Notes: generated by a model not told the origin, from the letters alone. A stretch of DNA of 64,000 nucleotides from an uncultured bacterium (GCA_938045955.1 CALIBK010000105.1:5187-69186); one strand, 5' to 3'. Counted from the first letter of the stretch, positions 15,421 through 64,000 are shown. Translations and numbers: made by a program.

Positions 15421-15454
15421 CCACAGCCTCTCGCAACGCGCACGGTGCTAAGCG

Positions 15455-23173: not shown

Positions 23174-23179
23174 CTCCTC

Positions 23180-25030: not shown

Positions 25031-25033
25031 CTC

Positions 25034-45103: not shown

Positions 45104-45136
45104 CCTCACCGATTGAGGGATTATAAGTTTTTTAAG
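45104..45136 (+). terminator. candidate intrinsic terminator after iclR-family gene (convergent with TRAP permease gene)
   Basis: Stem CCCTCA/TGAGGG (45104-45109 / 45115-45120), loop CCGAT, followed within 8 nt by GTTTTTT. Confidence 0.3.
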
Positions 45137-47084: not shown

Positions 47085-47125
47085 TTTTTTCTCCTTTCCT
47101 TTTCATGGCCCCTGTCTAAAATGAT

Positions 47126-47530: not shown

Positions 47531-47574
47531 AATAAGCCTCCCTCCTTTCTATAAAATAGAACCTCAACTCTTAA

Positions 47575-48579
47575 TTATTTTACTTCCGGTGGGATTAACT
47601 CAGGTGGTATATTTTGCCCTATCTCACGATAAAATTTCACAGCCCCGGCATGAAAAGGAACTTTCAGGCCAAATTTAATGGCATTTCCTACCATATCATC
47701 AAATTTTCCTTCTTTAAGTGTAGCGAGAGGAGCCACCATAGCGGCCCGGTTTTCCCATATCGCCTTCACAATTTTATAGACCACATCATCAGGGACATCC
47801 TTACGGACAAAATCACTAATCACGTAGGCATAACTGAGCTGGTCCTGAGTGACCGCTTTAAATAATCCTGCTGGAATCGTCATACTTCGATGTAAACCCG
47901 GCTGGACTTTTTCGGCTTTTTCCATAAGTTCCTTTGTCACAGGGACAATTGTAATTTCCATGGCAGCTTCAATGTCAAGAATTGCCGCATCTTTAAAACC
48001 TGCTTTAAACCAACCATCGACTACACCCGCTTTCATGGCATCTGGACTTGCTCCTAAACCCATCAGTTTGTAGTTAGGTTTGATCCCAATAGCTTGCATA
48101 AAATACTCCATATGCCATCCAGAAGTGGTACCTGGGTTCATGGCAAAGGTTCTACCCTCGAAATCTTCCACTCTTTTAATTCCGCTTTTTTTGCTGGCAA
48201 CTAAATGAATCGGGGTAAAGTAACCTCCCCATAAGGTCCTCAAGTTTTTATCCGGTTTATCTTTCCAATCCAATATGCCTAAATAACTGGCTGCACCAGC
48301 CCCGGTACTTGCGGGACCAGCATGAATTGTTCCTCTTCGGAGTCTCTCGAGGTTTTCCACATATCCACCCGTCTCAACGACGGTCACGATGATATCCCCG
48401 GGATAAGCCTTATTAATAATCCCGGCCATAGCGACTGTGTTAGCATAAAGTCCTGATCGGACACTGGTGGAACCGAATTTAAAACGGAAAGGGGCTGCGT
48501 TTACGTCCGAAAAATGGAATACAATAACTATGAAAATTGATAAGCTTAATATACAAAAAATAAAATTTTTCTTTACCAT
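47575..48579 (-). CDS. TAXI-family TRAP transporter solute-binding protein
   Basis: 334 aa with signal peptide; TAXI-type fold hallmarks (GSTSVRSGLYANTVAMAGIINKAYP...VVETGGYVENLERLRRG); RBS GAAAGGAGG. Confidence 0.8.
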   Translation of the reverse strand: MVKKNFIFCILSLSIFIVIVFHFSDVNAAPFRFKFGSTSVRSGLYANTVAMAGIINKAYPGDIIVTVVETGGYVENLERLRRGTIHAGPASTGAGAASYLGILDWKDKPDKNLRTLWGGYFTPIHLVASKKSGIKRVEDFEGRTFAMNPGTTSGWHMEYFMQAIGIKPNYKLMGLGASPDAMKAGVVDGWFKAGFKDAAILDIEAAMEITIVPVTKELMEKAEKVQPGLHRSMTIPAGLFKAVTQDQLSYAYVISDFVRKDVPDDVVYKIVKAIWENRAAMVAPLATLKEGKFDDMVGNAIKFGLKVPFHAGAVKFYREIGQNIPPELIPPEVK

Positions 48580-48710
48580 TTTACTTTCCTCCTTTCTAAT
48601 ACAGAATTTAATTTTTTATAATTAAAATTTTTTAGGCAAATTCACCTCCTTTATTATTTTTGTTTTGGGTAATGAAAACTCATTTACTTATTCGATATTA
48701 AATTTAATAA

Positions 48711-48727
48711 TTTGTCAAGAAAAAATT
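48711..48727 (-). promoter_or_regulatory. second copy of TTTGTCAAGAAAAAA motif upstream of TAXI-TRAP operon (putative shared promoter -35/UP element or operator)
   Basis: Exact 15-mer shared with 40548-40562; both lie in AT-rich regions immediately upstream (minus-strand sense) of transporter operons. Confidence 0.3.
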
Positions 48728-48757
48728 CTTGAATTTCTGTAACTCATCATTAAGAGA

Positions 48758-51034: not shown

Positions 51035-51115
51035 CTTAGATACTCCTGTATGGGTGATAAAGATTGTCATGAAGGACAGTGAATGATAAGAATTCACTCT
51101 TATTCACAATAGCCC

Positions 51116-51592
51116 CTATTCACCTCTCGATTCTCTCCCGCTTGCTGATAAAATGGCTTCGACAATCTTCACATAACCGGTGCATCGACAAAGGTTTCCA
51201 GAAATCGCCCTCTTTACCTCTTCCTCTGAGGGATGAGGATTTTCTTCTAAGAAGGCCTTTGCCGTAAGAATCATCCCTGGGGTACAGAAGCCACATTGGA
51301 TTGCTCCTTTTTCAATAAAAGCGTTTTGGAGAGGGTGAAGCTTACCATTCTGTGCCAGACCCTCAATGGTGGTGATCTTTTTCTTTTCCACAGCCACGGC
51401 CAGGGTAAGACAAGAAAGCCATGGCCTTCCATCCACAAGAACGGTACAGGCCCCGCAGGTCCCAAGATCGCATCCTCTTTTTGTTCCTGTCAGGCCAAGA
51501 TCCTCTCTTAAGACTTCGAGAAGGGTTTTATGACCTTCAACCAGGATTTCCAAATCCTCTCCATTTACGTTGAGTTTAAGAATACGTTTCAT
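51116..51592 (-). CDS. [2Fe-2S]-binding small subunit of XDH-family enzyme (CoxS/HcrC-like)
   Basis: ATG 51592 (MKRILKLNVNGE) with AGGAG RBS; plant-type ferredoxin motif CDLGTCGACTV and second cluster motif CGFCTPG...CRCTGY. Confidence 0.85.
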   Translation of the reverse strand: MKRILKLNVNGEDLEILVEGHKTLLEVLREDLGLTGTKRGCDLGTCGACTVLVDGRPWLSCLTLAVAVEKKKITTIEGLAQNGKLHPLQNAFIEKGAIQCGFCTPGMILTAKAFLEENPHPSEEEVKRAISGNLCRCTGYVKIVEAILSASGRESRGE

Positions 51593-51662
51593 AATCACTC
51601 CTGTATTTTCTCTCTTTCCCCATTCCTGTTCACTCTTAGTGTTTAAAATTTCGTTTCGAATT

Positions 51663-52640
51663 TCAATTTATCCACTTGAGTCTATCAAGCCCTTCTCGTA
51701 AAAGTATTCCGGCCATCTTTCTTTTATAGGCCGGGGAGTAGATAGACGTCCTCATAGGAGAAACCGTTTGAGGAACCTCCCGGGATAGAGAATCTATGAT
51801 GGAATCATCGAGGGTTTTTCCGATAAGCATCTTTTCAATTCCAGAAGCTTCTACTGGACCCTCTCCCACTCCGCTGAAGACCACCCTTGCCAGGCTTATC
51901 TTATTATCTTCTTTTTCAATATAAAGAGCTAATGAGACGATCGGGAATTCAATCGATCCTCTCCATCTCCATTTGAGGTAAACTCCTTTCCCGGAGGATT
52001 GAGGCACTATGACTTCTTTAATGATCTCTCCTTTCCTTAAGGAGAGGGGTTTTTTACCATTAAAAGAATAGAGTCTTTTTAGAGGAAAGATCCTTTCCCC
52101 TTGAGGACCTAAAACTTTAACCCGCGCACCCATTGCAATGAGAGCGGGAGCCAGATCTCCGCAATAGGTGGAATGACATTCCCTGGGCTTTTTTATGACA
52201 TGGCAGATCTCTCCTCCCGCCTTGAAGCAAGGGGGTCTTACGCTTCGCCAGAAAGGAGACTGATTATAGAAACGACATCGGTTCCCCTGACATAGGTTTC
52301 CTCCGACCGTTCCCATGACCTGATGGGCATAGGCTCCGACCTCTCTGGCTGCGTGAGAAAGAATCGAAAATTTTTCCTGAATCAAGGGGGAGGTATATAG
52401 ATCGCGAAGAGAGGTGAGTACCCCGATTCTTATCGCTTCTTTCTCTTCAATTATGTAAGAAAGTTTTGGAATGGATTTGAGATGAATAATTCTTGCGGGC
52501 GTTATGACTCCGAATTTCATATTCACCAGAAGATCTGTTCCTCCAGCCAAAAGGTAGGTTCCTGATGGATCAGCGGAAAGATTCTTTACCGCTTCTTTCA
52601 AGGATTTCGGTTCAATATATTCAAATTTTGGAAGTCGCAT
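51663..52640 (-). CDS. FAD-binding subunit of XDH-family enzyme (CoxM/HcrB-like) with Cys-rich insertion
   Basis: 325 aa; FAD-binding domain LLAGGTDLLVNMK; unusual six-Cys insertion GNLCQGNRCRFYNQSPFWRSVRPPCFKAGGEICHVIKKPRECHSTYCG. Confidence 0.8.
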   Translation of the reverse strand: MRLPKFEYIEPKSLKEAVKNLSADPSGTYLLAGGTDLLVNMKFGVITPARIIHLKSIPKLSYIIEEKEAIRIGVLTSLRDLYTSPLIQEKFSILSHAAREVGAYAHQVMGTVGGNLCQGNRCRFYNQSPFWRSVRPPCFKAGGEICHVIKKPRECHSTYCGDLAPALIAMGARVKVLGPQGERIFPLKRLYSFNGKKPLSLRKGEIIKEVIVPQSSGKGVYLKWRWRGSIEFPIVSLALYIEKEDNKISLARVVFSGVGEGPVEASGIEKMLIGKTLDDSIIDSLSREVPQTVSPMRTSIYSPAYKRKMAGILLREGLDRLKWIN

Positions 52641-52664
52641 CTTTTCTCTCCCAGAAGATTTAAA

Positions 52665-53966
52665 TCATTTGATTAAATTTGGCAAAATGAGGGCGAGTTT
52701 CGGGAAGAGGATTAATATTCCCGCATTAATCAACAGGGCTACCAGAAAAGGGAAGATCCCTTTAAAGATCGTCTCCAGAGGTATCTCGGGGGCAATTCCC
52801 TTGATGACATAGACATTGACTCCTACCGGCGGTGTAATCACACCCATCTCACTTACAAGCACAATAATCACACCAAACCAGATCGGATCAAATCCGAGCC
52901 TGAGCACGACAGGGAAAATCACCGGCACGGTGAGAACCACCAGGGCCATCGCATCCATAAAACAGCCCCCGATGAGATAAATCAGGATGATGACCCCCAT
53001 AATGGCAACAGGATGGAGAGGGAGCCCAGCAATCCAGTCCGCCAGAATAAAAGGGATCGTCGAGACTGCCATGAAGTGGCCGAATACCGTAGCCCCGGCA
53101 ATCACACAAAGAACCATGCAGGAGGTTCTCAGCCCATCCAGGGTTGAATCGATGAACCCCCTCAAACGGATCTCCCTCCTCATCAAGCCAATCCCCAAGG
53201 CTCCAGCAGCCCCAATCCCCCCGGCCTGGGTGGGTGTAAACCAACCGAGAAAGAGGCCTCCGATTACCAAACAGAAAAGAACCAGAGCTTCCCCTATCCC
53301 AATAAGAGCCTTCATCTTCTCTCTGAGAGTGGTCGAAGGACCTGCAGGAGCACATTCCGGCTTTCGCCAGCAGAGGATCCCCACCGTAAGAATGAAAAGA
53401 AAGACGAGGATTATCCCTGGAATGATTCCAGCCACGAAGAGCTTCCCGATGGATTGCTCCGTAATAATCCCATAGACCAGAAAGATTGTGCTCGGAGGGA
53501 TGAGAATCCCCAGTGTCCCCGCACTTGCCACACACCCTGTGGCCAGCGTATCATCATATTTATACTTTTTCATCTCCGGGAGGGCCATCTTCCCGATGGT
53601 AGCCGCAGTGGCAGAGGTTGAGCCACAAATCGCTGCAAAGAACCCACAGGCGACCACCGTGGCCATCGTTAATCCCCCACGAAGCCCTCCCAAGATCGTA
53701 TAGGCGGCTTCATAGAGCCTCCTGCCAATCCCTGAGGCAAAGGCAAAAGAACCCATGAGAATAAACATCGGAATTGCACTTAAAGGAAAGCTGAAAAACT
53801 GCTCGAAGAAATCTCGGGCAAGAAGTCTAAGCCCTGCCTTCAAGGTAGAAAGATACGAGAAACCCAGGAACCCCACAAAGGCCATTGCAAAGGCCACAGG
53901 CATTCGAATGAGAAAGAGCAAAACAAGCAAAAGGATTCCAAAGATACCCACATTAACGGGATCCAT
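52665..53966 (-). CDS. dctM: TRAP transporter large permease (DctM)
   Basis: ATG at 53966 (MDPVNVGIFGILLLVLLFL) matches the DctM N-terminus; the track begins at an upstream TTG. 12-TM profile. Confidence 0.85.
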   Translation of the reverse strand: MDPVNVGIFGILLLVLLFLIRMPVAFAMAFVGFLGFSYLSTLKAGLRLLARDFFEQFFSFPLSAIPMFILMGSFAFASGIGRRLYEAAYTILGGLRGGLTMATVVACGFFAAICGSTSATAATIGKMALPEMKKYKYDDTLATGCVASAGTLGILIPPSTIFLVYGIITEQSIGKLFVAGIIPGIILVFLFILTVGILCWRKPECAPAGPSTTLREKMKALIGIGEALVLFCLVIGGLFLGWFTPTQAGGIGAAGALGIGLMRREIRLRGFIDSTLDGLRTSCMVLCVIAGATVFGHFMAVSTIPFILADWIAGLPLHPVAIMGVIILIYLIGGCFMDAMALVVLTVPVIFPVVLRLGFDPIWFGVIIVLVSEMGVITPPVGVNVYVIKGIAPEIPLETIFKGIFPFLVALLINAGILILFPKLALILPNLIK

Positions 53967-54441
53967 CTCCAAAGACCTCAAAAAGGGATTCGATCGTCTC
54001 TATAAAGAAGACCAGACAGACAGGAAGGCAACAGAAGGCTATGAAGTAGGCAAATGGATAGTAGGGAAGGTGAGAGGTTGAACCGATCTCCCCAGCCTCT
54101 TGAAGAGACCTCCCGTAGAGAAGACTCTGCCAGAGAAGAAATACAAAAAGGATCAATGAAAGGAAAGAGCTGAAGCCACTGATCCCGGCCCGAATTCGCC
54201 TTGGAAAACGATCGAGAATAAATTCGACCCGAATATGTCGACCCATAAGAAGGGCCATGGCGATGGTCGAAGCAATCGCCATAATTTGAGAAAAACCGAT
54301 GAGCTCCGTCGCCCCGGGGACGGGCCAAAGAAAAAGTTTCGCCCCAATCACATCGATCAGATTCACCAGGAACATTAAAAGGAGCCCGATCAATCCCACC
54401 CATTCGAGGGATTGACTGAACCTCCTGGTCCACCCTTCCAT
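53953..54441 (-). CDS. dctQ: TRAP transporter small permease (DctQ)
   Basis: 162 aa, 4 TM helices, positioned between dctP and dctM; overlaps dctM start. Confidence 0.7.
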   Translation of the reverse strand: MEGWTRRFSQSLEWVGLIGLLLMFLVNLIDVIGAKLFLWPVPGATELIGFSQIMAIASTIAMALLMGRHIRVEFILDRFPRRIRAGISGFSSFLSLILFVFLLWQSLLYGRSLQEAGEIGSTSHLPYYPFAYFIAFCCLPVCLVFFIETIESLFEVFGDGSR

Positions 54442-54526
54442 GAATGAAACCTCTTGATAGAGGATTCTTGTAGCCTTTCCCTTTCTCCTTTCTTGCTACA
54501 AGGAGAAAGGGAAAGAATCGCGATGA

Positions 54527-55594
54527 TTATTTGATGCGAACTTCGGAAGGACCGGTTGAGGATTTCACTCCCAACTCTTTCTGCTTCTTCGTCCAATACT
54601 CGATCCGCATTCGAGCATAATTGATCAACTCCCGGGTCTCTTTCTCCGAATATCCCGCTGCCACCATCGATTTCACATACTTGTCCAATACAGGCTCCAC
54701 CGCCTTTTTCCACTTGGTAATCTCCTCACTCGGAAGCTCAATGAATTGCAGACCCTTTTCCTTTCCATACTGCTTTCCATCAATGTCCACCTCATTCCAC
54801 ATCGTCGCCAGCTTCTCCTCAAAAGGATATTCACTCAATATCTTTTTCAGCTCCGGTGAAAGTTTGTTCCAGGCCTCCTTATTCATAATCAAATAAAAGG
54901 TATAGACCTGACCGATCGGCCAACACTCCGTTACATATTTAGCCACCTCTGCATACCGAAAAGCCCTCATCGTCTCCATCGGAATCATTAATCCATCGAT
55001 CACCTTCTTCTGCATCGCTTCATAGGCTTCAGGGGTAGGAATGGGTCGAGGGGTTGCCCCCAGGGCTGTGACCACTTCTGCTATAAAACCCAGGCCCCTT
55101 AACGTCATCCCTTTTAGATCCTCCATCTTGTAGACTGGCTTTGTGGCTGAAAGGACGACATTGACAGGACTTGTATGCATCGAAAGTATATGAACCTTAT
55201 CCCATTCCTTCGGCTTAAATTCTCTGATAAAATCATTGGCCACATGATTAGCCACCCAGGCATTCGGAAACCCCAGAGGGAGATCCAGGGTTTCGGTCAT
55301 CCGGAAGCGCCCAAAGGTATAACCAATGTTGGAGAAGCCAATGTCCGCAATCCCTTCAACCACCCCATCATACATTTTCGGGGCCGTCAACAGGGTCCCT
55401 GCCGGAAAATAACGAATCTTTAATTCTCCTTTGGAGCGGGCCTCCAGATCCTTGATGAATTCCTCACAGATCTTGGACTGCCGAGCAGGAATCGGAAAAT
55501 AATTGCAGAATTTTAACTCCACGGCTCCCCAAACAAAGGAAGGCAAAACCATCACGAAAAGAATGAATCCAACGAGCAGTCTCTCCTTTTTCAT
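54527..55594 (-). CDS. dctP: TRAP transporter solute-binding protein (DctP family)
   Basis: Start set at MKKERLLVGFILFVMVLPSFVWGA (ATG 55594, AAGGAGGTG RBS); DctP-family fold. Confidence 0.8.
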   Translation of the reverse strand: MKKERLLVGFILFVMVLPSFVWGAVELKFCNYFPIPARQSKICEEFIKDLEARSKGELKIRYFPAGTLLTAPKMYDGVVEGIADIGFSNIGYTFGRFRMTETLDLPLGFPNAWVANHVANDFIREFKPKEWDKVHILSMHTSPVNVVLSATKPVYKMEDLKGMTLRGLGFIAEVVTALGATPRPIPTPEAYEAMQKKVIDGLMIPMETMRAFRYAEVAKYVTECWPIGQVYTFYLIMNKEAWNKLSPELKKILSEYPFEEKLATMWNEVDIDGKQYGKEKGLQFIELPSEEITKWKKAVEPVLDKYVKSMVAAGYSEKETRELINYARMRIEYWTKKQKELGVKSSTGPSEVRIK

Positions 55595-55955
55595 ATGAAA
55601 TCCACCTCCTTTTTGAATTTTATCCATCCTAAAAATTTTTAATTCGTAATCTTATTCCTCCTCACCTCCTTTCCGGATAAAGGCCTGTTCAATAACCCAC
55701 AAATCATTGTGAGACAGGATTTCGCAGGGACATCAATTTTTTATTTATCGCAGTCTGTCATTCCGTGCTGGACACGGATTCCAGGGCTTCCCATGAAAAC
55801 GGGAATCCAATTCCTAATATTTCCCTGACTTCGCACCTCGTACTTGATACGGGGCTGAATTCCTGCTCCCTGCTTAAGACCTGCAGTGACAATTTTCACA
55901 GGAATGACGCCTTAAACCCCCTCTGTTATTGGAAACCTCAGAGAAGGTTTCCTCC

Positions 55956-57647
55956 TTAGGGTTTGATTTTTCCTTCTTGAATCAACTTTTCCGTGATGAT
56001 CTGCTTCAACCTTTTTTTATCCACTTTTCCAACGTTGGTCAAGGGGAATTCGTTCAGAATTTCAATTCGTTCAGGGAGATAGATCACGGAAGTTTTCTTA
56101 TCCTTTAAGAAGGAGATGATCTCTTCAAAAGTGATCGTTTCCTCCGTTCGGGGTTTGATGAAGGCACAGATTCGTTCCCCAAGGATAGGATCGGGCATGG
56201 GAACCACCGCCACTTGCTCGATCTTGGGATGGCCGATCATTAAATTCTCCACTTCTTTTGCACTGATATTCTCCCCGCCTCGAATGATGATCTCCTTCTT
56301 CCGACCTGTAATGATCAAATGACCTTCCCGATCAAATTTCGCAATGTCCCCGGTTCGATAAAACCCGTCGGGGGTAAAGGCCTCTCGATTTTCCTCTTCA
56401 GATTTATAATAACCTCGAAAGATACAGGGCCCTCTGGCCACCAGCTCTCCCTCTGTTTCGGGCGGGAGGAGATTTCCATGGGAATCGATCACTTTAAATT
56501 CATCATAGGGGCAGATGGGCCACCCTACCGTGTGAAGGACGATCTCTTCCGGGTCTTCCAATCGGGTCTGAGAGCATGGACCTTCGGAGCTGCCATAGAC
56601 ATTATAAAATTTACATTTTAATTTTTTATAAATTTTTTTAATCGTTTCAGGAGGGATAGAAGAGCCTCCGGTAGCGATCACATGAAGAGAGGATAGATCG
56701 TACTGGTCGAGTTCAGGTGAATCCACAATCTGTTGGACCTGAGCCACTGCGAGGATGGTCGTCGTAATCCTCTCCCTCTCAATGGTCTCCAGTATGTCTT
56801 TAGGATGGGTGGAGGGAATGATGACCACTTTTCCCCCCGTAAGGAGGGTGGGATTTAAGGAAACCTCGATGGCCATGTTATGAGTGAGGGGGGTTGCAAT
56901 TAGGGTAATATCGTGAGGGCTCCGCTGCCATGCCTTAGCCCGGTATTCTATATTGCAATAAAAATCGTTATGGGTCCTCGGGACTAATTTTGGAAATCCA
57001 GTCGTTCCCCCGGTAGGCATCAAATGACATATTTCATTCGGGTCGGGTTTAAAAGATTCAAGATAATCCTCTGGATATTTGCTCGGATCGACTTCGGCTA
57101 AAATTTTATTGAAGGATATTGTTCCCTCGGGGATCGATTTCCCTTTCTCCTGAGATGAGTCGATGACTAAAATATATTTTAATGAATAAGGATGAGATTT
57201 TATGGCAGAAATGATGGGTTGATAATCTATCTTTTCAAACCGAAGGGGAACGATCCAGGCCTTCGCCTCAGTGATTTCGCAGAAATATTCTATCTCCCTC
57301 TGAGAAAATCGAGGAATACACATGACAGGAATTGCCCCGATTTTGTGAAGCCCATAATATGCAAAAACAAATTCGGGCCAGTTCGGGATCTGAAGAAGGA
57401 CTCGGTCAAATTTCTCGATGCCTAACTCGAGAAAGGCAAGGGCTGTGCGGTTGACCTTTTCTTGAAGTTCCCGATAGGTGAGTCGAACGCTGCCGGCGAC
57501 AAGGGCCTCCTTATAAAAATAGAGATCGGCACTCCGGTCAAGCATTTCTCCGAGAGTGATTCCCAACCACCAGTGATTTTTGTAGTATCGCTCAACAAAT
57601 TCTTCTGGAAATGGAATGGTTCCGGGTAAGGTCATCGAAGTGACCAT
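55956..57647 (-). CDS. AMP-dependent synthetase/ligase (aryl-CoA ligase-like; 2,3-dihydroxybenzoate-AMP ligase / cyclohexanecarboxylate-CoA ligase family)
   Basis: 563 aa; AMP-binding motifs MPTGGTTGFPKLVPRTH, YGSSEG, and a C-terminal lysine region (GKVDKKRL). Confidence 0.8.
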   Translation of the reverse strand: MVTSMTLPGTIPFPEEFVERYYKNHWWLGITLGEMLDRSADLYFYKEALVAGSVRLTYRELQEKVNRTALAFLELGIEKFDRVLLQIPNWPEFVFAYYGLHKIGAIPVMCIPRFSQREIEYFCEITEAKAWIVPLRFEKIDYQPIISAIKSHPYSLKYILVIDSSQEKGKSIPEGTISFNKILAEVDPSKYPEDYLESFKPDPNEICHLMPTGGTTGFPKLVPRTHNDFYCNIEYRAKAWQRSPHDITLIATPLTHNMAIEVSLNPTLLTGGKVVIIPSTHPKDILETIERERITTTILAVAQVQQIVDSPELDQYDLSSLHVIATGGSSIPPETIKKIYKKLKCKFYNVYGSSEGPCSQTRLEDPEEIVLHTVGWPICPYDEFKVIDSHGNLLPPETEGELVARGPCIFRGYYKSEEENREAFTPDGFYRTGDIAKFDREGHLIITGRKKEIIIRGGENISAKEVENLMIGHPKIEQVAVVPMPDPILGERICAFIKPRTEETITFEEIISFLKDKKTSVIYLPERIEILNEFPLTNVGKVDKKRLKQIITEKLIQEGKIKP

Positions 57648-57657
57648 TCACTTTTGT

Positions 57658-58737
57658 CTATTTAAAGGTGGATTTTACAATATCACCGGGGCTGAAGTCG
57701 TTTCCTTCCACTCTCTTTGCAATGGCAGCATCGACCCCGAAGAGTTCTTGAACTCTTACTAAACCCTTAAGTCTTCCCGTCGTCCAACCAAGGGAGAGGT
57801 GAGTAGTGGGATGAATGATCTCCTTTCCAGGCTCATAGACCTCAAGATGGTCTCCTACCCGAAGCCCCGAGAGCTTCCCTGCGTTAAGGAAGAGGGTTTC
57901 TCCTTCGATCTTTGCAATGGTCGTACTCCATTCAAGATAATCTAAATATCTCAGGAGGCCATCCAGGGTGTCTTCAAGGGCGAAATCAATCGCTTTCGTT
58001 ACCGCTTTGCTCCGGCTATACTCTCCGGTTTCTTTCGTTCCAAAGATGGGACTTCGTCCAATAAAGGTTTTTAGAAGATTTCCTGTGGAGGCATCGACCA
58101 GCCGAACCTCTACCTTGGCCGTTGCAAAAGAGACCTCTTCTTCAGAAGCTTCAGAGGTTTTTGAGGAAAGAAGGCTAACGTCCATCACTGATCCATAAAG
58201 GACGGCCTGGATTCCATAGGAGCGATGGGCTCGTTTAATAAATTCAAGATTCGAGAGGCTTTCAAAAGAGAGTCCCTCTCGACGAAGCATCTCTAATATT
58301 GCATTTCGATCTATCAGAACTACTCTCTGGGAAGCTTCCAGTTTGTCGGAGAGTCGTTTGGCTACGGTTTCGCCAATCTTCTCTTCTTTATAGGTGGTTT
58401 TATTTTCAAAGTCTAAAATAATGACCTTTTTCTTTAAACCCATCTGAAAGTAAGGAAGGGGAGATCCATAGAAGGGACGACTCGGAATAGATGCGATCTT
58501 TGAATCAGGTTCTTTCCTGATTGGTGGAGGAGGAGAGGGTTTGCTCGGAGGAGGAGTTTCGGCGATCTGAGGATTCACCCCTTTAATCGTTTCCAATCCT
58601 TCAACCCTGACGGTTTTACCCTCCGGAAGTTTTTCTTCTGACCTCTTTTTCCCGATCAATGGAAGATTTGCACAGCCATTTAGAAAAAAAATTAAAAAAA
58701 GAGAGATTACAAAAACTTCAACAATTCTATTTTTCAT
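57658..58737 (-). CDS. CsgG-family-like outer-membrane lipoprotein with Pro-rich linker and extra C-terminal domain
   Basis: Lipobox FFLNGC; Pro-rich PPPSKPSPPPPIRKEP; CsgG-like block KKVIILDFENKTT...VAKRLSDKLEASQRVVLIDRNAILEM; RBS AAGGAG. Confidence 0.5.
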   Translation of the reverse strand: MKNRIVEVFVISLFLIFFLNGCANLPLIGKKRSEEKLPEGKTVRVEGLETIKGVNPQIAETPPPSKPSPPPPIRKEPDSKIASIPSRPFYGSPLPYFQMGLKKKVIILDFENKTTYKEEKIGETVAKRLSDKLEASQRVVLIDRNAILEMLRREGLSFESLSNLEFIKRAHRSYGIQAVLYGSVMDVSLLSSKTSEASEEEVSFATAKVEVRLVDASTGNLLKTFIGRSPIFGTKETGEYSRSKAVTKAIDFALEDTLDGLLRYLDYLEWSTTIAKIEGETLFLNAGKLSGLRVGDHLEVYEPGKEIIHPTTHLSLGWTTGRLKGLVRVQELFGVDAAIAKRVEGNDFSPGDIVKSTFK

Positions 58738-58983
58738 GAAATCTCCTTTTAATAAGGTTCCCTTCTTAAAAATTATCCTCCTTTGAGGACCTCGTCCTAA
58801 TCTAAGAGAAAAGCTAATTTCATTGCAATATTACCAATTTTATAAAATAAGTCAAGCAAAGGGGGTACTGTCTCGCAATCCATCGGTCAGGATTGGGGAA
58901 TAGGCCTGATAGGGATGCACTGACCCCAAACGCGGTCTAAGGGTTTATTAAAGCATCCGGGGTAAAAGGGATGAAATAAAGAA

Positions 58984-59012
58984 TTGACGGAGATAAGGAT
59001 ATTTGATATAAA
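58984..59012 (+). promoter_or_regulatory. putative sigma70-type promoter for the DUF2267-TctC gene
   Basis: TTGACG (58984-58989), 17-nt spacer, TATAAA (59007-59012); about 120 nt upstream of ATG at 59136. Confidence 0.35.
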
Positions 59013-59135
59013 ATGCTTGGGTTTTGTTCATTCTATCCTGATTCGGAGCGGATTTCGTTTCATATCGTAATCAGAAATCTCCCTTTCTCATCGATTTCTT
59101 CAGGAATCATTTTTTTAAAAAGAGGAGGTTAGGAG

Positions 59136-60203
59136 ATGATGACCCGAAAGGAATTTCTTGAGCAGGTCATGAAGATGGCAAATCTTCGGGATTTAAAACA
59201 GGCGGACGAGGCTACACGGGCGGTGATTTCACTTACTAAATTAATTATTGGACCAAAGCTATCTCAGAAGATTGCAGAAGTTTCTCCCCCCGATCTCAGG
59301 ATAGGATGGGAAGCCATTCAGCCTGCCTACCCGAAGAAATCCATCAAGATTATTACAGGTCCCGGGGGTGAGGATGAAGATATTCGGCAGGTGGTTCCCT
59401 ATCTTCAAAAATACCTCGGGGTAGAGGTGGTCATTGAACATATTGTTGGTTTCTGGGGAAGGATTCCTTTCGAAAAATTTCAGACCACTGATCCTGATGG
59501 ATATACCTTAATGTGCTATACCTTCCCGAGGAGTATCATGATTGAACTTACGGGGGAAAGCCATTTTAAGACCAGAGAGTTTACCCCCATTTTTGCCTGG
59601 TCCTCTGGAAATCAATTCTTAGTGGTTCCCTCTGAGAGGTTTAAAACGTTTGATGAATTTATAAAGGAAGCTAAAACCCGGAGGTTTTCCGCAGCCATTC
59701 CTGTTAAAAGGGGGATCAGCCATTTGTCTGGATTATTGTTTTCCGAAGGGTTGGGGATTCAGGTGGATTGGATCCCTTACGGGGGATTGGCTTCAAGTAT
59801 GGCCGCCCTGAATCGGGGAGAGGTTGATTTTATGATCTCCTTGGCGAATGCTCTTCCTACTTATATGAAAACGGGCAGGATAAAGGTCCTTGCGATGCTT
59901 CCTGAAAAGTCAGGGAAACGATGCCCTTATTTTCAACATATTCCTTCCATTAAGGAACTCGGATACGATATTCCGATGATCACAGTTCGACACGTGTTGG
60001 AGGCTCCACCCAATACTCCCGCTCATATTGTAATGGTTCTCGAAGGGGCGCTCAAGCGGGCGATTCAAGGACCTACCTATCTGGAGTGGGCGAAGAGGAA
60101 CTTCGTCAATATTGAGCCTCTGGACGTTAGGGCTTTTTCACAGGAGAAGGAGGAAGCCTATACTAAGATAGAAAGAGTGAAAGAGAAGTTCGGAGAGGAG
60201 TAG
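59136..60203 (+). CDS. cytoplasmic fusion protein: DUF2267-like N-terminal helical segment + TctC/Bug-family (tripartite tricarboxylate transporter receptor-like) domain, no signal peptide
   Basis: ATG ATG at 59136 with AGAGGAGG RBS and upstream sigma70-like promoter. N-term MMTRKEFLEQVMKMANLRDLKQADEATRAVISLTKLI resembles the DUF2267 consensus. Residues about 65-355 carry TctC hallmarks (YPKKSIKIITGPGG..., TDPDGYTL). Confidence 0.55.
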   Translation: MMTRKEFLEQVMKMANLRDLKQADEATRAVISLTKLIIGPKLSQKIAEVSPPDLRIGWEAIQPAYPKKSIKIITGPGGEDEDIRQVVPYLQKYLGVEVVIEHIVGFWGRIPFEKFQTTDPDGYTLMCYTFPRSIMIELTGESHFKTREFTPIFAWSSGNQFLVVPSERFKTFDEFIKEAKTRRFSAAIPVKRGISHLSGLLFSEGLGIQVDWIPYGGLASSMAALNRGEVDFMISLANALPTYMKTGRIKVLAMLPEKSGKRCPYFQHIPSIKELGYDIPMITVRHVLEAPPNTPAHIVMVLEGALKRAIQGPTYLEWAKRNFVNIEPLDVRAFSQEKEEAYTKIERVKEKFGEE

Positions 60204-60226: not shown

Positions 60227-62281
60227 TTATAGGGATGGATCTTCCATTGCCTTTTCCAAAAGTTCAGCTATATCATAAACCTTCACGGAATCCTCCTTTC
60301 TTCTGGCCTTGAGGCCATCCTCGAGCATCGTTAGACAATAGGGGCAGGCTGTGATAATCTGATCAGGTTTAAGAGCCAGTGCCTGATCCACACGCATTTC
60401 ATTGATCCGCTTCCCGAGATGTTCCTCCATCCACATCCTGCCCCCTCCGCCTCCGCAGCAGAAGCTTTTAGAGCGAGTCCTTTCCATTTCCTGAAGTCTT
60501 ATTCCGTGGAGGGTGGTTAGGATTTTCCTCGGTTCTTCATAGATTCCATTATATCGACCCAGATAACAAGAATCATGATAGGTGACAGTGATCGGACTTC
60601 CCTTTTTTAGGGAGAGCCTTTCTTCCTGAAGGAGCCGGGCGAGATACTCTGTGTGATGGATGATTTCAAAAGAACCCCCAAATTGTGGGTATTCATTCTT
60701 TAAGGTATTGAAACAGTGGGGACAGGAAGTAAGAATCTTCTTCACCCCGTATTGTCTCAAGGTCTGAATATTGGCCTCTGCCAAATTTTTAAAGAGATAT
60801 TCATTGCCGATCCTCCGGACGGATTCACCACAACATCCTTCTTCTTTACCCAGAATTCCAAACTTCACCCCTGCACGCTTAAGGATTCGAGAAAGCGAGA
60901 TGGCCACCTTTTTACTTCGGTCATCATAACTCTTGAAACATCCGGGGAAGTAGAGGATCTCCACCTCTGGATCCTCAGGAAAGGATTTTACTCCTAATAG
61001 GGAAGCCCAATCTGAACGAAGATGCCTTTCGGCACCCCATGGATTGCTCCTCCTTTCCAGATTTTTGAATACCTCCCTTACTTCTGTGGGATACCGAGAT
61101 TCCATCAGGACCAGATATCGTCTCACCTCTATAATTTTGTCATAAGCAGAAATAAAAACCGGACATTGTTCGTAACAATTGAGGCAGAACGTGCATGCCC
61201 AGAGAGCCTCTTCAGAAAGGAGTTCATTGAGAGAAGGATCCTCTGTTGCAGAAAAGGAAGGATTCCAGAGAAGCCTCCTTCCTTTTTCATGGAGAAGGGT
61301 TCTAAGGTCTTGAATAACCTTTTTGGGAGACAGGGGCTTTTGGCTCAGATAGGCAGGGCAGTGCTCCTGACATCGTCCACAATTGGTACAGGCCTCAAGA
61401 TCCAAAAGTTGCTTCCAAGAAAATTCAAAGAGGTTTTTCACCCCGTAAGTCTCGGCCTCCTCGAAATCAGGAATGGGAGAGAGGGCTCCTTTCAGGGTGA
61501 GAGGGCGGAAAAATATATTGAGAGGAGATAAGAAGAGATGCTGGAGAGAGGAGTGGCTGAGGGTAATATAGAAGAACAGGAATAGAGCAGGAAGGGCATG
61601 GATGAAGATTCGATGCCATATAAAAAGTTCATTCAAAAGGTCTGTTGAAAAAACAGGGAGGAGACGGGAGATGGGATAACTAAGGGGTGCCCAGGAGAGC
61701 CACTCGGGAGGGGGAAGAGATCCAGCTACAGCCATTCGGTACCCCTTTATGAGAAACCCTGTGATCAAAATTCCAAAACCCCAGAGGAAGATCAAGGTCC
61801 TATCGGGTTGGGTTTCCAGACGATAAGGTCTAAAAAGGTACCTACGAATTACGGCAAGAGCACCCCCAATGAGAACCAGCCCCCCTCCCATCTCGGAAAC
61901 AAAGGAGGAGTATAAAAATATGGATTGAGGGGGATCGGTTAATCCAAATGGGAGAGAGAAGAGCCTGATAAATTTACCTAAAAAGATGAGCATCATTCCC
62001 CAGAAGATTAAAATATGCATGAGTCCAGAATATCCTTTTTTCCAGAATCGGGAATGGGTCAGGGTAGTCATGAGAAGGGTTTTAAGTCTGAAAGCTACAT
62101 CGCCTGTTCTCCTCTCATCCTTTCCAGAGTGCCAGAGTCGATAATGGAATTTCCAGAAAAAGAAAAGAAAGAAAGCCATCAAAAAAGGGAGAAGGATTAG
62201 AAAACCGAGGAGAATCGGGGAAAATATCTCCTTGATATAAAAATGTTGAATTTTCCAGAATTGAAGCGTCGAGCCTTCCAT
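60227..62281 (-). CDS. membrane-bound Fe-S oxidoreductase: N-terminal polytopic cytochrome-b-like (HdrE/NarI-like) domain fused to 2x[4Fe-4S] + double CCG (HdrD-like) domain
   Basis: 684 aa; about 6 TM helices with conserved His (LMHILIFWG; IWHRIFIHALPA), then CTNCGRCQEHCP / CTFCLNCYEQCP and CCG domains (CPHCFNTLKNEYPQ; DSCYLGRYNG; CCGGGGGRMW; CPYCLTM). Confidence 0.75.
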   Translation of the reverse strand: MEGSTLQFWKIQHFYIKEIFSPILLGFLILLPFLMAFFLFFFWKFHYRLWHSGKDERRTGDVAFRLKTLLMTTLTHSRFWKKGYSGLMHILIFWGMMLIFLGKFIRLFSLPFGLTDPPQSIFLYSSFVSEMGGGLVLIGGALAVIRRYLFRPYRLETQPDRTLIFLWGFGILITGFLIKGYRMAVAGSLPPPEWLSWAPLSYPISRLLPVFSTDLLNELFIWHRIFIHALPALFLFFYITLSHSSLQHLFLSPLNIFFRPLTLKGALSPIPDFEEAETYGVKNLFEFSWKQLLDLEACTNCGRCQEHCPAYLSQKPLSPKKVIQDLRTLLHEKGRRLLWNPSFSATEDPSLNELLSEEALWACTFCLNCYEQCPVFISAYDKIIEVRRYLVLMESRYPTEVREVFKNLERRSNPWGAERHLRSDWASLLGVKSFPEDPEVEILYFPGCFKSYDDRSKKVAISLSRILKRAGVKFGILGKEEGCCGESVRRIGNEYLFKNLAEANIQTLRQYGVKKILTSCPHCFNTLKNEYPQFGGSFEIIHHTEYLARLLQEERLSLKKGSPITVTYHDSCYLGRYNGIYEEPRKILTTLHGIRLQEMERTRSKSFCCGGGGGRMWMEEHLGKRINEMRVDQALALKPDQIITACPYCLTMLEDGLKARRKEDSVKVYDIAELLEKAMEDPSL

Positions 62282-62292
62282 TTTTTCCTTGA

Positions 62293-62526
62293 TCAGAGAA
62301 CATGATGTAAGCGTGGGTAGAATGTAAACAGATGGGCGATCAGAAAGGAAAGAACCATTCCCCCAATAATCAGTAAGGAGATCCTTAAAAATTTTTTATA
62401 TTTTGGGTCCAACCCGAGGTCAAAAAGGATGAGTCTGATAGCCACAAGAAAGGAGTATAAAAAGGCCGTCAGTAAGATTAATTCCAAAGATATAGCCAGA
62501 GGTCTAATAACATCCTCCGTCATCAT
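62293..62526 (-). CDS. small two-TM membrane protein (HmcD-like position)
   Basis: 77 aa, two hydrophobic helices; start overlaps stop of upstream NrfD-like gene. Confidence 0.4.
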   Translation of the reverse strand: MMTEDVIRPLAISLELILLTAFLYSFLVAIRLILFDLGLDPKYKKFLRISLLIIGGMVLSFLIAHLFTFYPRLHHVL

Positions 62527-63716
62527 GATTGCTCCGTGATTGCCTTGGGATCTTCCTTTTCAATGAGAGGAAGGAGTTCCAAATACCTCAATCCAAGGAC
62601 AAAAAACAAACCCATCATAGAGAATATTCCCAGACACAGGAAAAGTTCAATAACGGTGATAGGAAAGATTCCTGCTTGACCCCACACCCCTTCGATCCTT
62701 CCGGGATAGAAAGGCATCGGAAGGGCCGTCCCCGGGATCACCAATGTATATCTCTCAAAGAAGATCCCGATAACGATTAAAGAGGAAGCTACCATCAGAC
62801 CTTTTATTGTTTTTCGAACTTCAGGAAGACTTAATAATAAAATGGGGAGAATGTACCCGCATCCCACCTGGAATCCCCAGAATAATCGGGCAAAGGGACC
62901 TGTAAGAAGCCAGAGAGTTGGTTCTCGATGGGGGGAGTAAAGGTGGGTTAATTTATCTATCAGGACGAAGACGACTAACGTGATCGTCAACCCTAAAAGT
63001 AATTTAGCCAGGGAGAAAAAGGGTTCTTTCCAGTATCGTCTTTTTGCAAAATGGAAGGCGGAGATGACGACGATCATCAGAAGGGCCAATCCGGAAGCCA
63101 TGGCTGCAGCCACAAATTCGAAGGGTTTTATGGGAGAATAAAAAATCGGCCTGGCTATAATAAAGCCAAAGATTGCTCCAGTACCCATATGGACCATGGA
63201 AGCCCAGATGATGGCCAATATCCCTATCTTTTTAGCCCACTTTTGATTGTTCGCCAGAATGAACCCAAAATAAAGAAAGCTTATCACAAAGTATCCTCCA
63301 TACAGGATCCCATTGAGAGCGAACATCGAGCGCATATTATTTAAGACAAAAAACATGAAGAGACGCCACATCTTTTCAGGTCTTCCGAGATCCATGGAAA
63401 TTCCGACCATAGCTCCGAAGATCAGGACAATGGCAAGAAAGACAGCAATCCGCGAGATCAGGCGATATTCTTCTCGACCAAAAACATAGGTCAAAGAAGA
63501 GAGAATGAGAGATCCTGCGCTCAAGCCGATGAGAAAGATAGTCATGATGATGGGCATCCCCCAGGGGATCCGATTACTCATTCCGAAGACCTGATGCCCA
63601 TGAATATAACTGACCACAAAGCAAACGAATCCTATAATCGAAAGAGCTGAAAGAATTACCAGAACCAGATAGTAATTTCGAGACTGGAATTCAACAGGAG
63701 TATAGATCAGTTTCAT
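62523..63716 (-). CDS. NrfD/HmcC/DsrP-family polytopic membrane protein
   Basis: 397 aa, about 10 TM helices, NrfD-like N-terminus; directly downstream of a 4Fe-4S protein gene. Confidence 0.65.
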   Translation of the reverse strand: MKLIYTPVEFQSRNYYLVLVILSALSIIGFVCFVVSYIHGHQVFGMSNRIPWGMPIIMTIFLIGLSAGSLILSSLTYVFGREEYRLISRIAVFLAIVLIFGAMVGISMDLGRPEKMWRLFMFFVLNNMRSMFALNGILYGGYFVISFLYFGFILANNQKWAKKIGILAIIWASMVHMGTGAIFGFIIARPIFYSPIKPFEFVAAAMASGLALLMIVVISAFHFAKRRYWKEPFFSLAKLLLGLTITLVVFVLIDKLTHLYSPHREPTLWLLTGPFARLFWGFQVGCGYILPILLLSLPEVRKTIKGLMVASSLIVIGIFFERYTLVIPGTALPMPFYPGRIEGVWGQAGIFPITVIELFLCLGIFSMMGLFFVLGLRYLELLPLIEKEDPKAITEQS

Positions 63717-63726
63717 TCAAATTCCC

Positions 63727-64000
63727 TTATCTTGTCAGGTAGTAGACCTTTGGCTTGGTCTCGAGCTCGTCTCGAAGTCTGAACCAGATCCGTGATGAGA
63801 GGAGACGGCAAACCTCGCTCGTTAGATCGTCTAAATCTCCAAATGTTCTTGCGCAGGAAGGGCAGCTCTCCACACAGGCCGGCACAATTTCTATTCCAAT
63901 CTTTTTTCCTTCCTTTATCCCCTGATCGATTCGATGGAAACAGAAATTACACTTTTCCACCACCCCATGGGTCCGCTTTGGGAAGGGCCAGCTCCCTCGA
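63727..64000 (-). CDS. 4Fe-4S ferredoxin-type protein (HmcB/DsrO/HybA-like), C-terminal part; partial, continues beyond window end
   Basis: Frame remains open to nt 64000; C-terminal motifs CNFCFHRIDQG and CVESCPSCARTF. Confidence 0.6.
   Translation of the reverse strand, partial: RGSWPFPKRTHGVVEKCNFCFHRIDQGIKEGKKIGIEIVPACVESCPSCARTFGDLDDLTSEVCRLLSSRIWFRLRDELETKPKVYYLTR

What the first reader, a model, noticed from the sequence alone, without database searches (positions are those of the whole stretch)
59136..60203. Signal-peptide-less TctC/Bug-type solute-binding domain fused to a DUF2267-like N-terminus
TctC/Bug proteins are normally periplasmic receptors with cleavable signal peptides working with TctAB. 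This 355-aa protein has clear TctC hallmarks (YPKKSIKIITGPGG...; TDPDGYTL) but starts with a hydrophilic helical segment matching the DUF2267 consensus (MMTRKEFLEQVMKMANLRDLKQADEATRAVISL) and has no hydrophobic leader. No tctA/tctB genes are nearby. A cytoplasmic carboxylate-binding Bug domain could act as a sensor or sequestration protein rather than a transport receptor. It has its own sigma70-like promoter and is oriented opposite to all neighbours.
Basis: partly seen in the sequence, partly recalled or inferred. Interest (0 to 1): 0.5.

Follow-up and report, generated by a model that had tools for sequence, protein, structure and literature searches.

The report
Cytoplasmic TctC-fold protein with DUF2267 head
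This gene encodes a member of a normally periplasmic transporter-receptor family that has no export signal, carries a small helical domain instead, and in related uncultured syntroph-like bacteria nearly always sits next to a membrane electron-transfer complex, so it probably binds a metabolite inside the cell rather than serving uptake.

Summary
ORF 59136-60203 (+) is a real 355-aa gene with a fixed start, a good ribosome-binding site, and no signal peptide or membrane helix. Residues ~65-355 are a TctC/Bug solute-binding fold (Pfam E=3e-28; TM 0.83-0.87 to Bug/TphC structures). Residues 1-64 are one half-repeat of DUF2267: weak in a direct Pfam scan (E=1.4e-3, below threshold), but a profile of the module retrieves bona fide DUF2267 proteins. 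No tctA/tctB lies in the window.

- The fusion is a conserved family. The best 120 of 677 hits are all full length, from Syntrophaceae-like Thermodesulfobacteriota MAGs. The head (84% identity) is better conserved than the TctC body (60%).
- The head also occurs as free-standing ~86-aa proteins.
- In 19 of 22 informative loci the gene abuts a DsrMK/HmcEF/EMO-like cytochrome-b/FeS/CCG membrane protein with NrfD and FeS subunits. The arrangement is convergent or co-directional, and duplicated copies each keep their own cluster.

My best reading is a cytoplasmic ligand-binding partner of that redox complex. This is inferred, not shown. I rate it a new variant of a known kind, of moderate interest.

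The parts
59136..60203 (+). Complete gene for the 355-aa DUF2267-half/TctC fusion protein (stop codon included)
   Evidence: ORF list and translation. The best 120 of 677 homologues are 350-364 aa with 97-100% query coverage.
59136..59327 (+). N-terminal helical module (residues 1-64), equal to one half-repeat of DUF2267
59328..60200 (+). TctC/Bug-type class II solute-binding fold (residues 65-355; Pfam envelope 84-326)
   Evidence: PF03401 E=3.1e-28. PDB sequence hits to BugE, BugD, TBP, TphC, AdpC and MatC at E about 1e-16 to 1e-10, with alignments starting at query residues 58-77 (mostly 61-70), where the mature Bug proteins begin. AF2 pLDDT 83.6. Foldseek TM 0.83-0.87 to 4x9t, 7ndr and 8hk9.
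58984..59012 (+). Sigma-70-type promoter with extended -10 element: TTGACG, 14 nt, TGATATAAA
   Evidence: Unique in the window, with 0 matches in 100 shuffles. Identical in L011, L012 and L013, while the surrounding intergenic DNA is poorly conserved. Transcription from it is inferred.
59122..59128 (+). Shine-Dalgarno sequence GAGGAGG, 7 nt before the ATG
   Evidence: Read directly from the sequence.
60227..62281 (-). Convergent neighbour, 23 nt away: 684-aa membrane protein with an N-terminal multi-helix (NarI/cytochrome-b-like) domain, 2x[4Fe-4S] and 2 CCG domains (DsrMK/HmcEF/EMO-like architecture)
   Evidence: Pfam CCG and Fer4 hits. About 5 TM segments. Best NCBIfam hits TfrB, LdhH, GlpC, TmcB, DsrK and HmcF are all below their cut-offs. 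A Nitrate_red_gam hit is recorded for the orthologue in L010. Adjacent to the fusion gene in 19 of 22 informative loci.
62293..62526 (-). 77-aa small membrane protein of the cluster (separate gene here; fused to the N-terminus of the CCG protein in other clades)
   Evidence: BLAST matches to the N-termini of the 753-763-aa CCG proteins in L002, L005 and L014-L018, and to separate ORFs in L012, L013 and L022.
62523..63716 (-). NrfD/DsrP-like integral membrane quinone-interacting subunit
   Evidence: PF03916 E=4.6e-42. Best NCBIfam hit is DsrP, below its cut-off. Conserved in 14 loci.
63727..64000 (-). C-terminal part of a DsrO/QrcC-like 4x[4Fe-4S] subunit, cut by the window end
   Evidence: Fer4_11 hit. 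The full-length orthologue in L013 reaches the DsrO cut-off (213.9 bits, cut-off 200).

Best explanation
SHOWN: The gene encodes a soluble cytoplasmic two-domain protein. A 64-residue helical head, equal to one half-repeat of DUF2267, is joined by a short low-confidence linker to a complete TctC/Bug class II solute-binding fold. The protein has no export signal. It represents a conserved family confined, so far, to Syntrophaceae-like Thermodesulfobacteriota MAGs. The same head also occurs there as free-standing ~86-aa proteins with an acidic tail. The fusion gene is almost always encoded directly beside a membrane redox module. That module has a DsrO/QrcC-like FeS subunit, an NrfD/DsrP-like subunit, a small TM protein and a fused cytochrome-b/2x[4Fe-4S]/2xCCG protein. 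In most clades it also has a Tat-exported Mo-bisPGD subunit, and in some etfBA.

INFERRED: The protein is not a transport receptor. The TctC body keeps the second 'pincer' loop (GGTSHLAG) and the GG..D core of the first, so it still binds a small, probably carboxylate-bearing, ligand in the cytoplasm. The very highly conserved DUF2267 head serves as a docking or oligomerisation module. Together they act with the cytoplasm-facing CCG/FeS domain of the neighbouring complex. They would either present a bound metabolite to it or tune its activity according to that metabolite. A loose comparison is the soluble protein DsrC serving DsrK.
For: - Cytoplasmic location: the start is fixed and there is no hydrophobic leader in the window protein or in 41 family members.
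- TctC fold.
- DUF2267 homology of the head.
- Family conservation: the best 120 hits are all full length, and the head is 84% identical against 60% for the body.
- Linkage to the CCG cluster: convergent with gaps of 8-58 nt in W, L002, L005, L010-L018, L020-L022, L024 and L047.
- Linkage survives rearrangement: the gene is co-directional, 330 nt downstream of the cluster, in L046, and is flanked by two clusters in L044.
- The unit is inherited together: three MAGs carry two paralogous fusion genes, each beside its own paralogous cluster, and the fine clades of the two protein trees coincide.
- The genes on the other side of the fusion gene differ between clades (RtcA-like, TatD, lipoprotein).
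- No TctA/TctB appears in the window or in the precomputed Pfam lists of the fetched contigs.
- Loop 2 and the GG of loop 1 are retained, as judged against the family signature given in PMC5812351.
- The cytoplasmic orientation of this kind of diheme/FeS protein (EMO) is described in PMC8805022.
Against: - No interaction, ligand or expression data exist. Gene adjacency is the only link to the redox complex, and in most loci the genes are convergent and so not co-transcribed.
- Three loci (L001, L008, L023) lack the cluster nearby.
- All loci come from one bacterial lineage, so part of the synteny may be inherited rather than selected.
- The canonical P-F of the first pincer loop is deleted. 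The GAGG loop is replaced by GFWG, and W.G..AP.GTP by RHV.EAPPNTP. The pocket may therefore no longer bind carboxylates.
- There is no conserved cysteine pair, so a DsrC-like thiol/disulfide carrier role for the protein itself is excluded.
- AF2 places the head with low confidence relative to the body.
Confidence: 0.45

Rival explanations
1. A free-standing cytoplasmic metabolite sensor or buffer. The TctC body binds a di- or tricarboxylate or an aromatic acid. The protein sequesters it, or signals through the DUF2267 head to some other partner. Adjacency to the redox cluster is inherited synteny with no functional meaning.
For: The gene has its own strong conserved promoter and is mostly convergent with the cluster, so it is an independent transcription unit. 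Three loci lack the cluster. The window and L001 carry TRAP transporters, and the window also carries acyl/aryl-CoA ligases for organic acids nearby. Amidohydro_2 genes lie next to the fusion gene in L001 and L043.
Against: The linkage survives changes of orientation (L046, L044) and a duplication of the whole unit, and it persists down to about 58% identity of the CCG protein, while the other flank is not conserved. No output domain or DNA-binding domain was detected.
Confidence: 0.27
2. An enzyme that evolved from the solute-binding fold, as Thi5, MqnA/MqnD, HisG and porphobilinogen deaminase did. It would act on a cytoplasmic carboxylate, perhaps one linked to quinone or cofactor metabolism of the neighbouring complex.
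For: The canonical Bug motifs are remodelled into family-invariant polar residues: YTFPRS (128-133), E137, H196, R227, D231, R285, H286 and E289. The body is under strong purifying selection. The location is cytoplasmic.
Against: No catalytic motif or cofactor site could be recognised. The closest sequence and fold relatives are all plain binding proteins. The AF2 model resembles open, unliganded binding proteins.
Confidence: 0.12
3. An assembly or maturation factor for the redox complex. Examples would be a cytoplasmic chaperone for the Tat-exported Mo subunit, or an oxyanion or cofactor-precursor binding protein, since ModA-like proteins share the fold.
For: The gene is next to a Tat-signal Mo-bisPGD enzyme operon in 11 loci. 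Operons of this kind usually encode a cytoplasmic private chaperone, and none is seen in these clusters. Class II binding proteins such as ModA appear among the remote fold hits.
Against: Clade A orthologues L012 and L013 keep the fusion gene although the cluster has no Mo subunit. There is no similarity to TorD/DmsD/NarJ. The fold is far closer to TctC than to ModA.
Confidence: 0.1
4. An ordinary periplasmic TTT receptor whose start codon or export route was misjudged.
For: Databases annotate it as 'tripartite tricarboxylate transporter substrate-binding protein'.
Against: An in-frame stop lies 2 codons upstream of the ATG, and the Shine-Dalgarno sequence is well placed. The hydrophilic head is conserved in all of the best 120 homologues. 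No hydrophobic segment occurs in the first 80 residues of 41 members. No tctA/tctB lies in the window.
Confidence: 0.03

Closest known systems
Bug/TctC solute-binding proteins of tripartite tricarboxylate transporters (BugD 2f5x, BugE 2dvz, Bug27 2qpq, AdpC 5oei, MatC 6hke, TphC 7ndr, TBP 8hk9, Bpro_3516 4x9t)
   Same: Same Pfam family (PF03401, 99.5 bits). Same two-lobe class II fold (TM 0.83-0.87, 18-24% identity). The DGYT motif, the second pincer loop G-G-T/I-S-H-L and the GG..D core of the first loop are retained.
   Different: No signal peptide, with a DUF2267-type helical head in its place. The P-F of the P-F-x-A-G-G-x-x-D signature is deleted. GAGG is replaced by GFWG, and W.G..AP.GTP by RHV.EAPPNTP. 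There are no TctA/TctB partners nearby. The gene is linked to a redox complex instead of a transporter.
DUF2267 (PF10025; crystal structure TTHA1432, PDB 2ysk)
   Different: Only one of the two ~60-residue repeats is present. The score is below Pfam's cut-off. Known DUF2267 proteins are free-standing or fused to BON or DUF5335, not to a binding-protein fold. The function of DUF2267 itself is unknown: the one paper the literature search found only names it.
DsrC with DsrMK(JOP), and HmcEF/TmcBC
   Same: A membrane cytochrome-b plus cytoplasmic FeS/CCG protein, with NrfD-type and DsrO-type subunits, has a small soluble cytoplasmic protein encoded with it.
   Different: The soluble protein here is a TctC fold without a conserved cysteine pair. 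The CCG protein is below the cut-offs of DsrK, HmcF and TmcB. No dsrAB context was seen. The comparison is an analogy, not membership.
EMO, the ETF:methylmenaquinone oxidoreductase of Syntrophus aciditrophicus (PMC8805022)
   Same: The neighbouring 684-aa protein has the same general build (membrane b-type-cytochrome-like domain plus FeS clusters, cytoplasm-facing). In L005, L006, L014, L015 and L017 the cluster follows etfBA.
   Different: Orthology to EMO was not tested because no reference sequence was at hand. EMO is not reported with a TctC-like partner. Here the protein sits in one operon with NrfD, FeS and Mo subunits.
Cytoplasmic proteins built on the periplasmic-binding-protein fold (LysR effector domains, Thi5, MqnA/MqnD, HisG)
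   Same: A class II binding fold has been recruited to a cytoplasmic, non-transport role, with an N-terminal helical module in front as in LysR-type regulators (general knowledge; remote fold hit 1zbm).
   Different: These are different sequence families. No HTH or other DNA-binding domain was detected in the head.

Membership tests
TctC/Bug sequence-structure family (PF03401) | Pfam PF03401 match above the gathering threshold | tested here: met
   99.5 bits against a cut-off of 27, E=3.1e-28, residues 84-326.
TctC/Bug sequence-structure family (PF03401) | Two-lobe class II binding-protein fold superposable on solved Bug/TctC proteins | tested here: met
   AF2 pLDDT 83.6. Foldseek E down to 1.6e-22 and TM (target-normalised) 0.83-0.87 to 4x9t, 8hk9 and 7ndr.
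TctC/Bug sequence-structure family (PF03401) | Signature pincer loop 1, P-F-x-A-G-G-x-x-D (PMC5812351), and loop 2 | tested here: inconclusive
   Loop 1 reads I-I-T-G-P-G-G-E-D-A/E-D. GG and an Asp are kept, but P-F is deleted in nearly all of the 41 members. Loop 2 (GGTSHLAG) is kept.
Functional TTT transport receptor (periplasmic TctC working with TctAB) | Cleavable signal peptide or lipoprotein anchor, giving an extracytoplasmic location | tested here: not met
   The start is fixed by an upstream stop. Kyte-Doolittle maxima are at most 1.37 in the first 80 residues of 41 members. SignalP itself was not available.
Functional TTT transport receptor (periplasmic TctC working with TctAB) | TctA/TctB membrane partners encoded nearby | tested here: not met
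   None of the 9 polytopic membrane ORFs in the 64-kb window is TctA or TctB. Neither appears in the Pfam lists of the contigs fetched. The rest of the genome could not be examined, and orphan Bug genes are common.
Functional TTT transport receptor (periplasmic TctC working with TctAB) | Binds a carboxylate ligand | not testable with these tools
   Needs thermal-shift or ITC assays, or a liganded structure.
DUF2267 (PF10025) | Pfam match above the gathering threshold (29.8 bits) | tested here: not met
   19.3 bits and E=1.4e-3 for the window protein. Free-standing relatives score 24-28 bits. One relative, P0241, scores 30.7.
DUF2267 (PF10025) | Homology demonstrable by profile search | tested here: met
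   Profile A3 of the module finds P0285, P0288, P0291, P0300, P0302 and P0303 at library-wide E=6.6e-8 to 7e-4. These proteins score 88-129 bits on PF10025.
DUF2267 (PF10025) | Complete ~120-residue domain made of two helical repeats | tested here: not met
   Only profile positions 2-55 of 122 are matched. The TctC body begins at residue ~65.
DUF2267 (PF10025) | Fold similarity to the solved DUF2267 structure 2ysk | tested here: inconclusive
DsrC-type thiol/disulfide carrier for CCG proteins | Conserved redox-active cysteine pair | tested here: not met
   Only one column (residue 235) is Cys in more than 30% of members, and it is Ser in the window protein.
One-component transcription regulator (LysR-like logic) | Recognisable DNA-binding domain | tested here: not met
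   No HTH or other DNA-binding family in Pfam or NCBIfam at E<=10. No significant fold match for the head.

The most novel reading that the evidence does not exclude
The fusion protein is the dedicated cytoplasmic partner of the CCG/FeS domain of a DsrMK/EMO-like membrane complex. A solute-binding protein captures a carboxylate-bearing redox substrate and hands it to an oxidoreductase rather than to a transporter, docking through the DUF2267 head. The free-standing DUF2267-half proteins would compete with or regulate the same docking site. This would be a binding-protein-dependent respiratory enzyme in syntrophic Thermodesulfobacteriota. It would also give DUF2267 its first function.
Probability: 0.15. 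Interest if true: 0.75.

Novelty: new variant of a known kind. Interest (0 to 1): 0.5.

Why it matters
TctC/Bug proteins are treated as extracytoplasmic receptors. Hundreds of 'orphan' copies have no known role, and public annotation calls this family a transporter subunit as well. A conserved, leaderless TctC family tied to a membrane redox complex shows that the fold has been recruited to a cytoplasmic job. It warns against reading such annotations as uptake capacity in metabolic reconstructions of syntrophs. It also offers a handle on two unknowns: the function of DUF2267, and the cytoplasmic reaction or partner of HdrD-like CCG subunits in bacteria that do not reduce sulfate.

Tried and rejected
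- **Start-codon correction to recover a signal peptide.** Impossible: an in-frame stop lies 2 codons upstream.
- **Riboswitch or other known RNA in the 398-nt upstream region.** Rfam finds nothing at E<=1.
- **Consensus promoter scan.** It missed the promoter, which was recovered by conservation and a pattern search.
- **Sequence search of PDB with the head profile.** Only chance hits to cytochrome b562, E about 0.09.
- **Foldseek of the head against PDB.** Nothing significant. The afdb50 library was not available.
- **Literature on DUF2267 and on leaderless TctC.** Nothing informative.
- **Conserved neighbours of the free-standing head proteins.** Only lineage-type synteny next to fhs/folD/CODH-ACS and a prenyltransferase-like gene, with no CCG cluster.
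- **DsrC-like carrier idea.** Rejected, because there is no conserved Cys pair.
- **Mirror-tree correlation of identities.** Modest (Pearson r=0.55), because the clade A CCG proteins evolved faster. Only the agreement of fine clades is used as evidence.
- **A pairwise BLAST script.** It timed out and was rewritten.

Full report
**1. The observation**

The reading frame has a stop two codons before the ATG, and GAGGAGG lies 7 nt upstream. The start therefore cannot be moved to uncover a leader.

Hydropathy gives no segment close to a signal-peptide core or a membrane helix. The maximum is 1.12 over 19 residues anywhere in the protein, and 1.25 over 15 residues within the first 80. In 41 aligned family members the 15-residue maximum in the first 80 residues is 1.37.

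Pfam confirms a TctC domain (PF03401, E=3.1e-28, residues 84-326). It also reports DUF2267 (PF10025) at E=1.4e-3 and 19.3 bits, below the 29.8-bit threshold. That match covers residues 5-58 and only positions 2-55 of the 122-position model.

**2. The TctC body**

Sequence search of the PDB finds only Bug/TctC binding proteins: BugE 2dvz, BugD 2f5x, terephthalate-binding TBP and TphC, AdpC and MatC, at E=1e-16 to 1e-10. The alignments begin at query residues 58-77, mostly 61-70, which is where the mature periplasmic proteins begin.

An AlphaFold2 model built on 41 homologues has pLDDT 83.6. It superposes on those structures with target-normalised TM 0.83-0.87, fitting best to open, unliganded forms.

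I compared the sequence with the family signature P-F-x-A-G-G-x-x-D and the two 'pincer' loops that hold the ligand's proximal carboxylate through waters (PMC5812351).
- The family keeps GG and an Asp in loop 1, but P-F is deleted (consensus IKIITGPGGEDAD).
- Loop 2 is kept (GGTSHLAG).
- The glycine-rich GAGG loop is replaced by GFWG.
- The W.G..AP.GTP strand is replaced by an invariant RHV.EAPPNTP.

A pocket is therefore probably retained but remodelled. Ligand binding is inferred, not shown.

**3. The head**

The first 64 residues are predicted as three to four helices, joined to the body by a low-confidence linker.

Three lines of evidence tie the head to DUF2267:
- The weak direct Pfam hit. 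Free-standing relatives give stronger hits, E=3e-6 to 4e-5 at 24-28 bits.
- A profile built from the module alone was searched against 1.84 billion representative proteins. It gives only 64 hits, and these include proteins that score 88-129 bits on PF10025, at library-wide E=6.6e-8 to 7e-4.

**4. A conserved family, not a one-off fusion**

The protein search returned 677 hits. The best 120 are all 350-364 aa, cover 97-100% of the query at 60-90% identity, and come from MAGs labelled Thermodesulfobacteriota, Syntrophaceae or Deltaproteobacteria. Sources name them 'tripartite tricarboxylate transporter substrate-binding protein'.

The head is the best-conserved part: 84% mean identity to the window protein, against 60% for the body.

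Among 185,579 species-representative genomes, a pattern scan based on the head found full-length or partial copies in about a dozen such MAGs. Three MAGs carry two paralogues.

The same scan, and a search with the head alone, revealed many free-standing proteins of 75-114 aa. They are about 80% identical to the head and carry a conserved acidic tail, DDYERDELLFETGEV. Their neighbourhoods show only lineage-type synteny, often divergent from fhs/folD/CODH-ACS genes.

**5. Genomic context**

In the window, the gene's convergent neighbour lies 23 nt away. It is a 684-aa membrane protein with about five TM segments, two [4Fe-4S] motifs and two CCG domains. It is followed by a 77-aa membrane protein, an NrfD protein and a DsrO/QrcC-like FeS protein that is cut off by the end of the window.

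The same cluster abuts the fusion gene in 19 of 22 informative distinct loci.
- It is tail-to-tail, with gaps of 8-58 nt, in W, L002, L005, L010-L018, L020-L022, L024 and L047.
- It is co-directional, with the fusion gene 330 nt downstream of the cluster, in L046.
- In L044 there is one cluster on each side of the fusion gene.
- L001, L008 and L023 lack the cluster.
- L043 is a frameshifted copy next to a transposase, with the cluster 5 kb away.

In most clades the cluster also encodes a Mo-bisPGD subunit with a twin-arginine leader (RRKFLK). Its NCBIfam hits are ArrA/PhsA/QrcB-like but below cut-off. In L005, L006, L014, L015 and L017 the cluster follows etfBA. The window-type orthologues L012 and L013 have no Mo gene.

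In the three MAGs with two fusion genes, each copy sits beside its own paralogous cluster. The fine clades of the fusion and CCG proteins also coincide. The genes on the other side of the fusion gene differ between clades.

This pattern is better explained by selection for linkage than by inertia alone: it is retained through a duplication and through changes of orientation while the other flank is lost. All the data come from one lineage, however, and adjacency is not interaction.

**6. Nature of the neighbouring complex**

Its parts resemble DsrMK(OP), HmcBCDEF and Hme-type complexes. The fused cytochrome-b-like/FeS/CCG protein also has the general build of EMO, the cytoplasm-facing diheme/FeS ETF:methylmenaquinone oxidoreductase of Syntrophus (PMC8805022; DUF224/ETF context in PMC5606693).

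All NCBIfam matches of the CCG protein (TfrB, LdhH, GlpC, TmcB, DsrK, HmcF) are below their cut-offs. It therefore belongs to no characterised equivalog. The rest of the window fits a syntroph-like fatty- or aromatic-acid oxidiser: acyl-CoA dehydrogenases, methylmalonyl-CoA mutase, an NuoF/FdhA-type module, a soluble HdrD-like protein, TRAP and ABC uptake systems, aryl/acyl-CoA ligases and a xanthine-dehydrogenase-family enzyme.

**7. Mechanism**

Shown: a leaderless, soluble TctC-fold protein with a DUF2267 half-repeat head; conserved as a family; with its own conserved promoter TTGACG-14-TGATATAAA at 58984-59012; and genomically coupled to the redox cluster.

Inferred (confidence about 0.45): it binds a small cytoplasmic ligand, and through the head it works with the cytoplasmic FeS/CCG domain of the neighbouring protein. 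It would act as a substrate-presenting or metabolite-sensing accessory.

Rivals:
- An independent cytoplasmic sensor or buffer (0.27).
- An enzyme derived from the binding fold (0.12). The many invariant polar residues, such as R132, S133, E137, H196, R285, H286 and E289, fit this idea.
- An assembly or cofactor factor for the Mo/FeS complex (0.10). This is weakened by the Mo-less clade A.
- A misjudged periplasmic receptor (0.03).

A DsrC-like thiol carrier is excluded because there is no conserved cysteine pair.

**8. Comparison and novelty**

By sequence and fold the body is a member of the TctC/Bug family. By function it fails two defining features of a TTT receptor: export, and nearby TctAB. 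The head is homologous to DUF2267 but is not a complete domain.

I found no description of leaderless TctC proteins or of this fusion in the searchable literature. Absence from that library is not proof of absence.

I rate it a new variant of a known kind, with interest 0.5. It is a clear, conserved departure from what the family is assumed to do, and it has a suggestive partner, but there is no functional evidence.

Noticed in passing
L026:10001-10261, L027, L028, L029, L030, L031, L032, L033, L035, L037, L039:7001-7294, L041:6475-6726: Free-standing 83-98-aa proteins about 80% identical to the fusion's head. They carry a conserved acidic tail (DDYERDELLFETGEV). In 6 of 12 loci they lie divergent from fhs/folD/CODH-ACS genes, and in 5 they lie near a prenyltransferase-like gene. 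Their function is unknown.
   Followed up: partly
window 60227-64000 (-); L013:11094-15291: A DsrMK/HmcEF/EMO-like fused cytochrome-b/FeS/CCG protein with a 77-aa TM protein, NrfD and a DsrO-like FeS subunit. In window-type orthologues L012 and L013 there is no Mo subunit, and the L013 FeS protein has no Tat leader. The topology of that half of the complex is therefore unclear. Other clades have a Tat-signal Mo-bisPGD subunit and etfBA.
   Followed up: partly
L044:1-13068: One fusion gene is flanked by two paralogous Mo-FeS-NrfD-small-CCG clusters, one co-directional upstream and one convergent downstream. The upstream cluster has an extra 153-aa ferredoxin-like gene.
   Followed up: no
L043:7001-8065: The fusion gene is split into 90-aa and 216-aa ORFs (a frameshift, or a pseudogene missing about 50 residues). 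It lies beside DDE transposase fragments, with the redox cluster 5 kb away in another arrangement.
   Followed up: no
window 57658-58737 (-): A 359-aa predicted lipoprotein (LFLIFFLNGC lipobox-like leader, proline-rich linker) with no Pfam or NCBIfam match. It is conserved at about 79% identity in L012 and L013. Its promoter-like block (58822-58858) is conserved and divergent from the fusion gene's promoter.
   Followed up: partly
window 20669-26661 (-): An FdhA/NuoG-like Mo subunit (834 aa), an NuoF-like subunit (616 aa) and a soluble HdrD-like FeS/CCG protein (382 aa; 38% identical to the C-terminal half of the membrane CCG protein) lie next to acyl-CoA dehydrogenases and HdrA-like flavoproteins (13486-17698). 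This is a possible confurcating formate dehydrogenase/Hdr-type module.
   Followed up: no
window 45132-57647 (-): An organic- or aromatic-acid uptake and activation block: a fused 650-aa DctQM-type TRAP permease with a TAXI (NMT1_3) binding protein; a xanthine-dehydrogenase-family Mo enzyme with its FAD subunit (48758-52640); a DctPQM TRAP system; and a DHB-AMP-ligase-like CoA ligase. An IclR regulator on the + strand lies at 44250-45071.
   Followed up: no
(database behaviour): Searches with the head alone returned only short proteins in their listed hits and none of the ~355-aa fusions, although the fusion heads are 75-100% identical to the query. This is probably an effect of representative choice or ranking.
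   Followed up: no
P0285 (253 aa): A bona fide DUF2267 protein whose first 40 residues also match the N-terminal helices of HU/IHF (PF00216, E=4e-7). This hints that the DUF2267 repeat may be related to the HU helical dimerisation body. Other DUF2267 proteins are fused to BON or DUF5335 domains.
   Followed up: no
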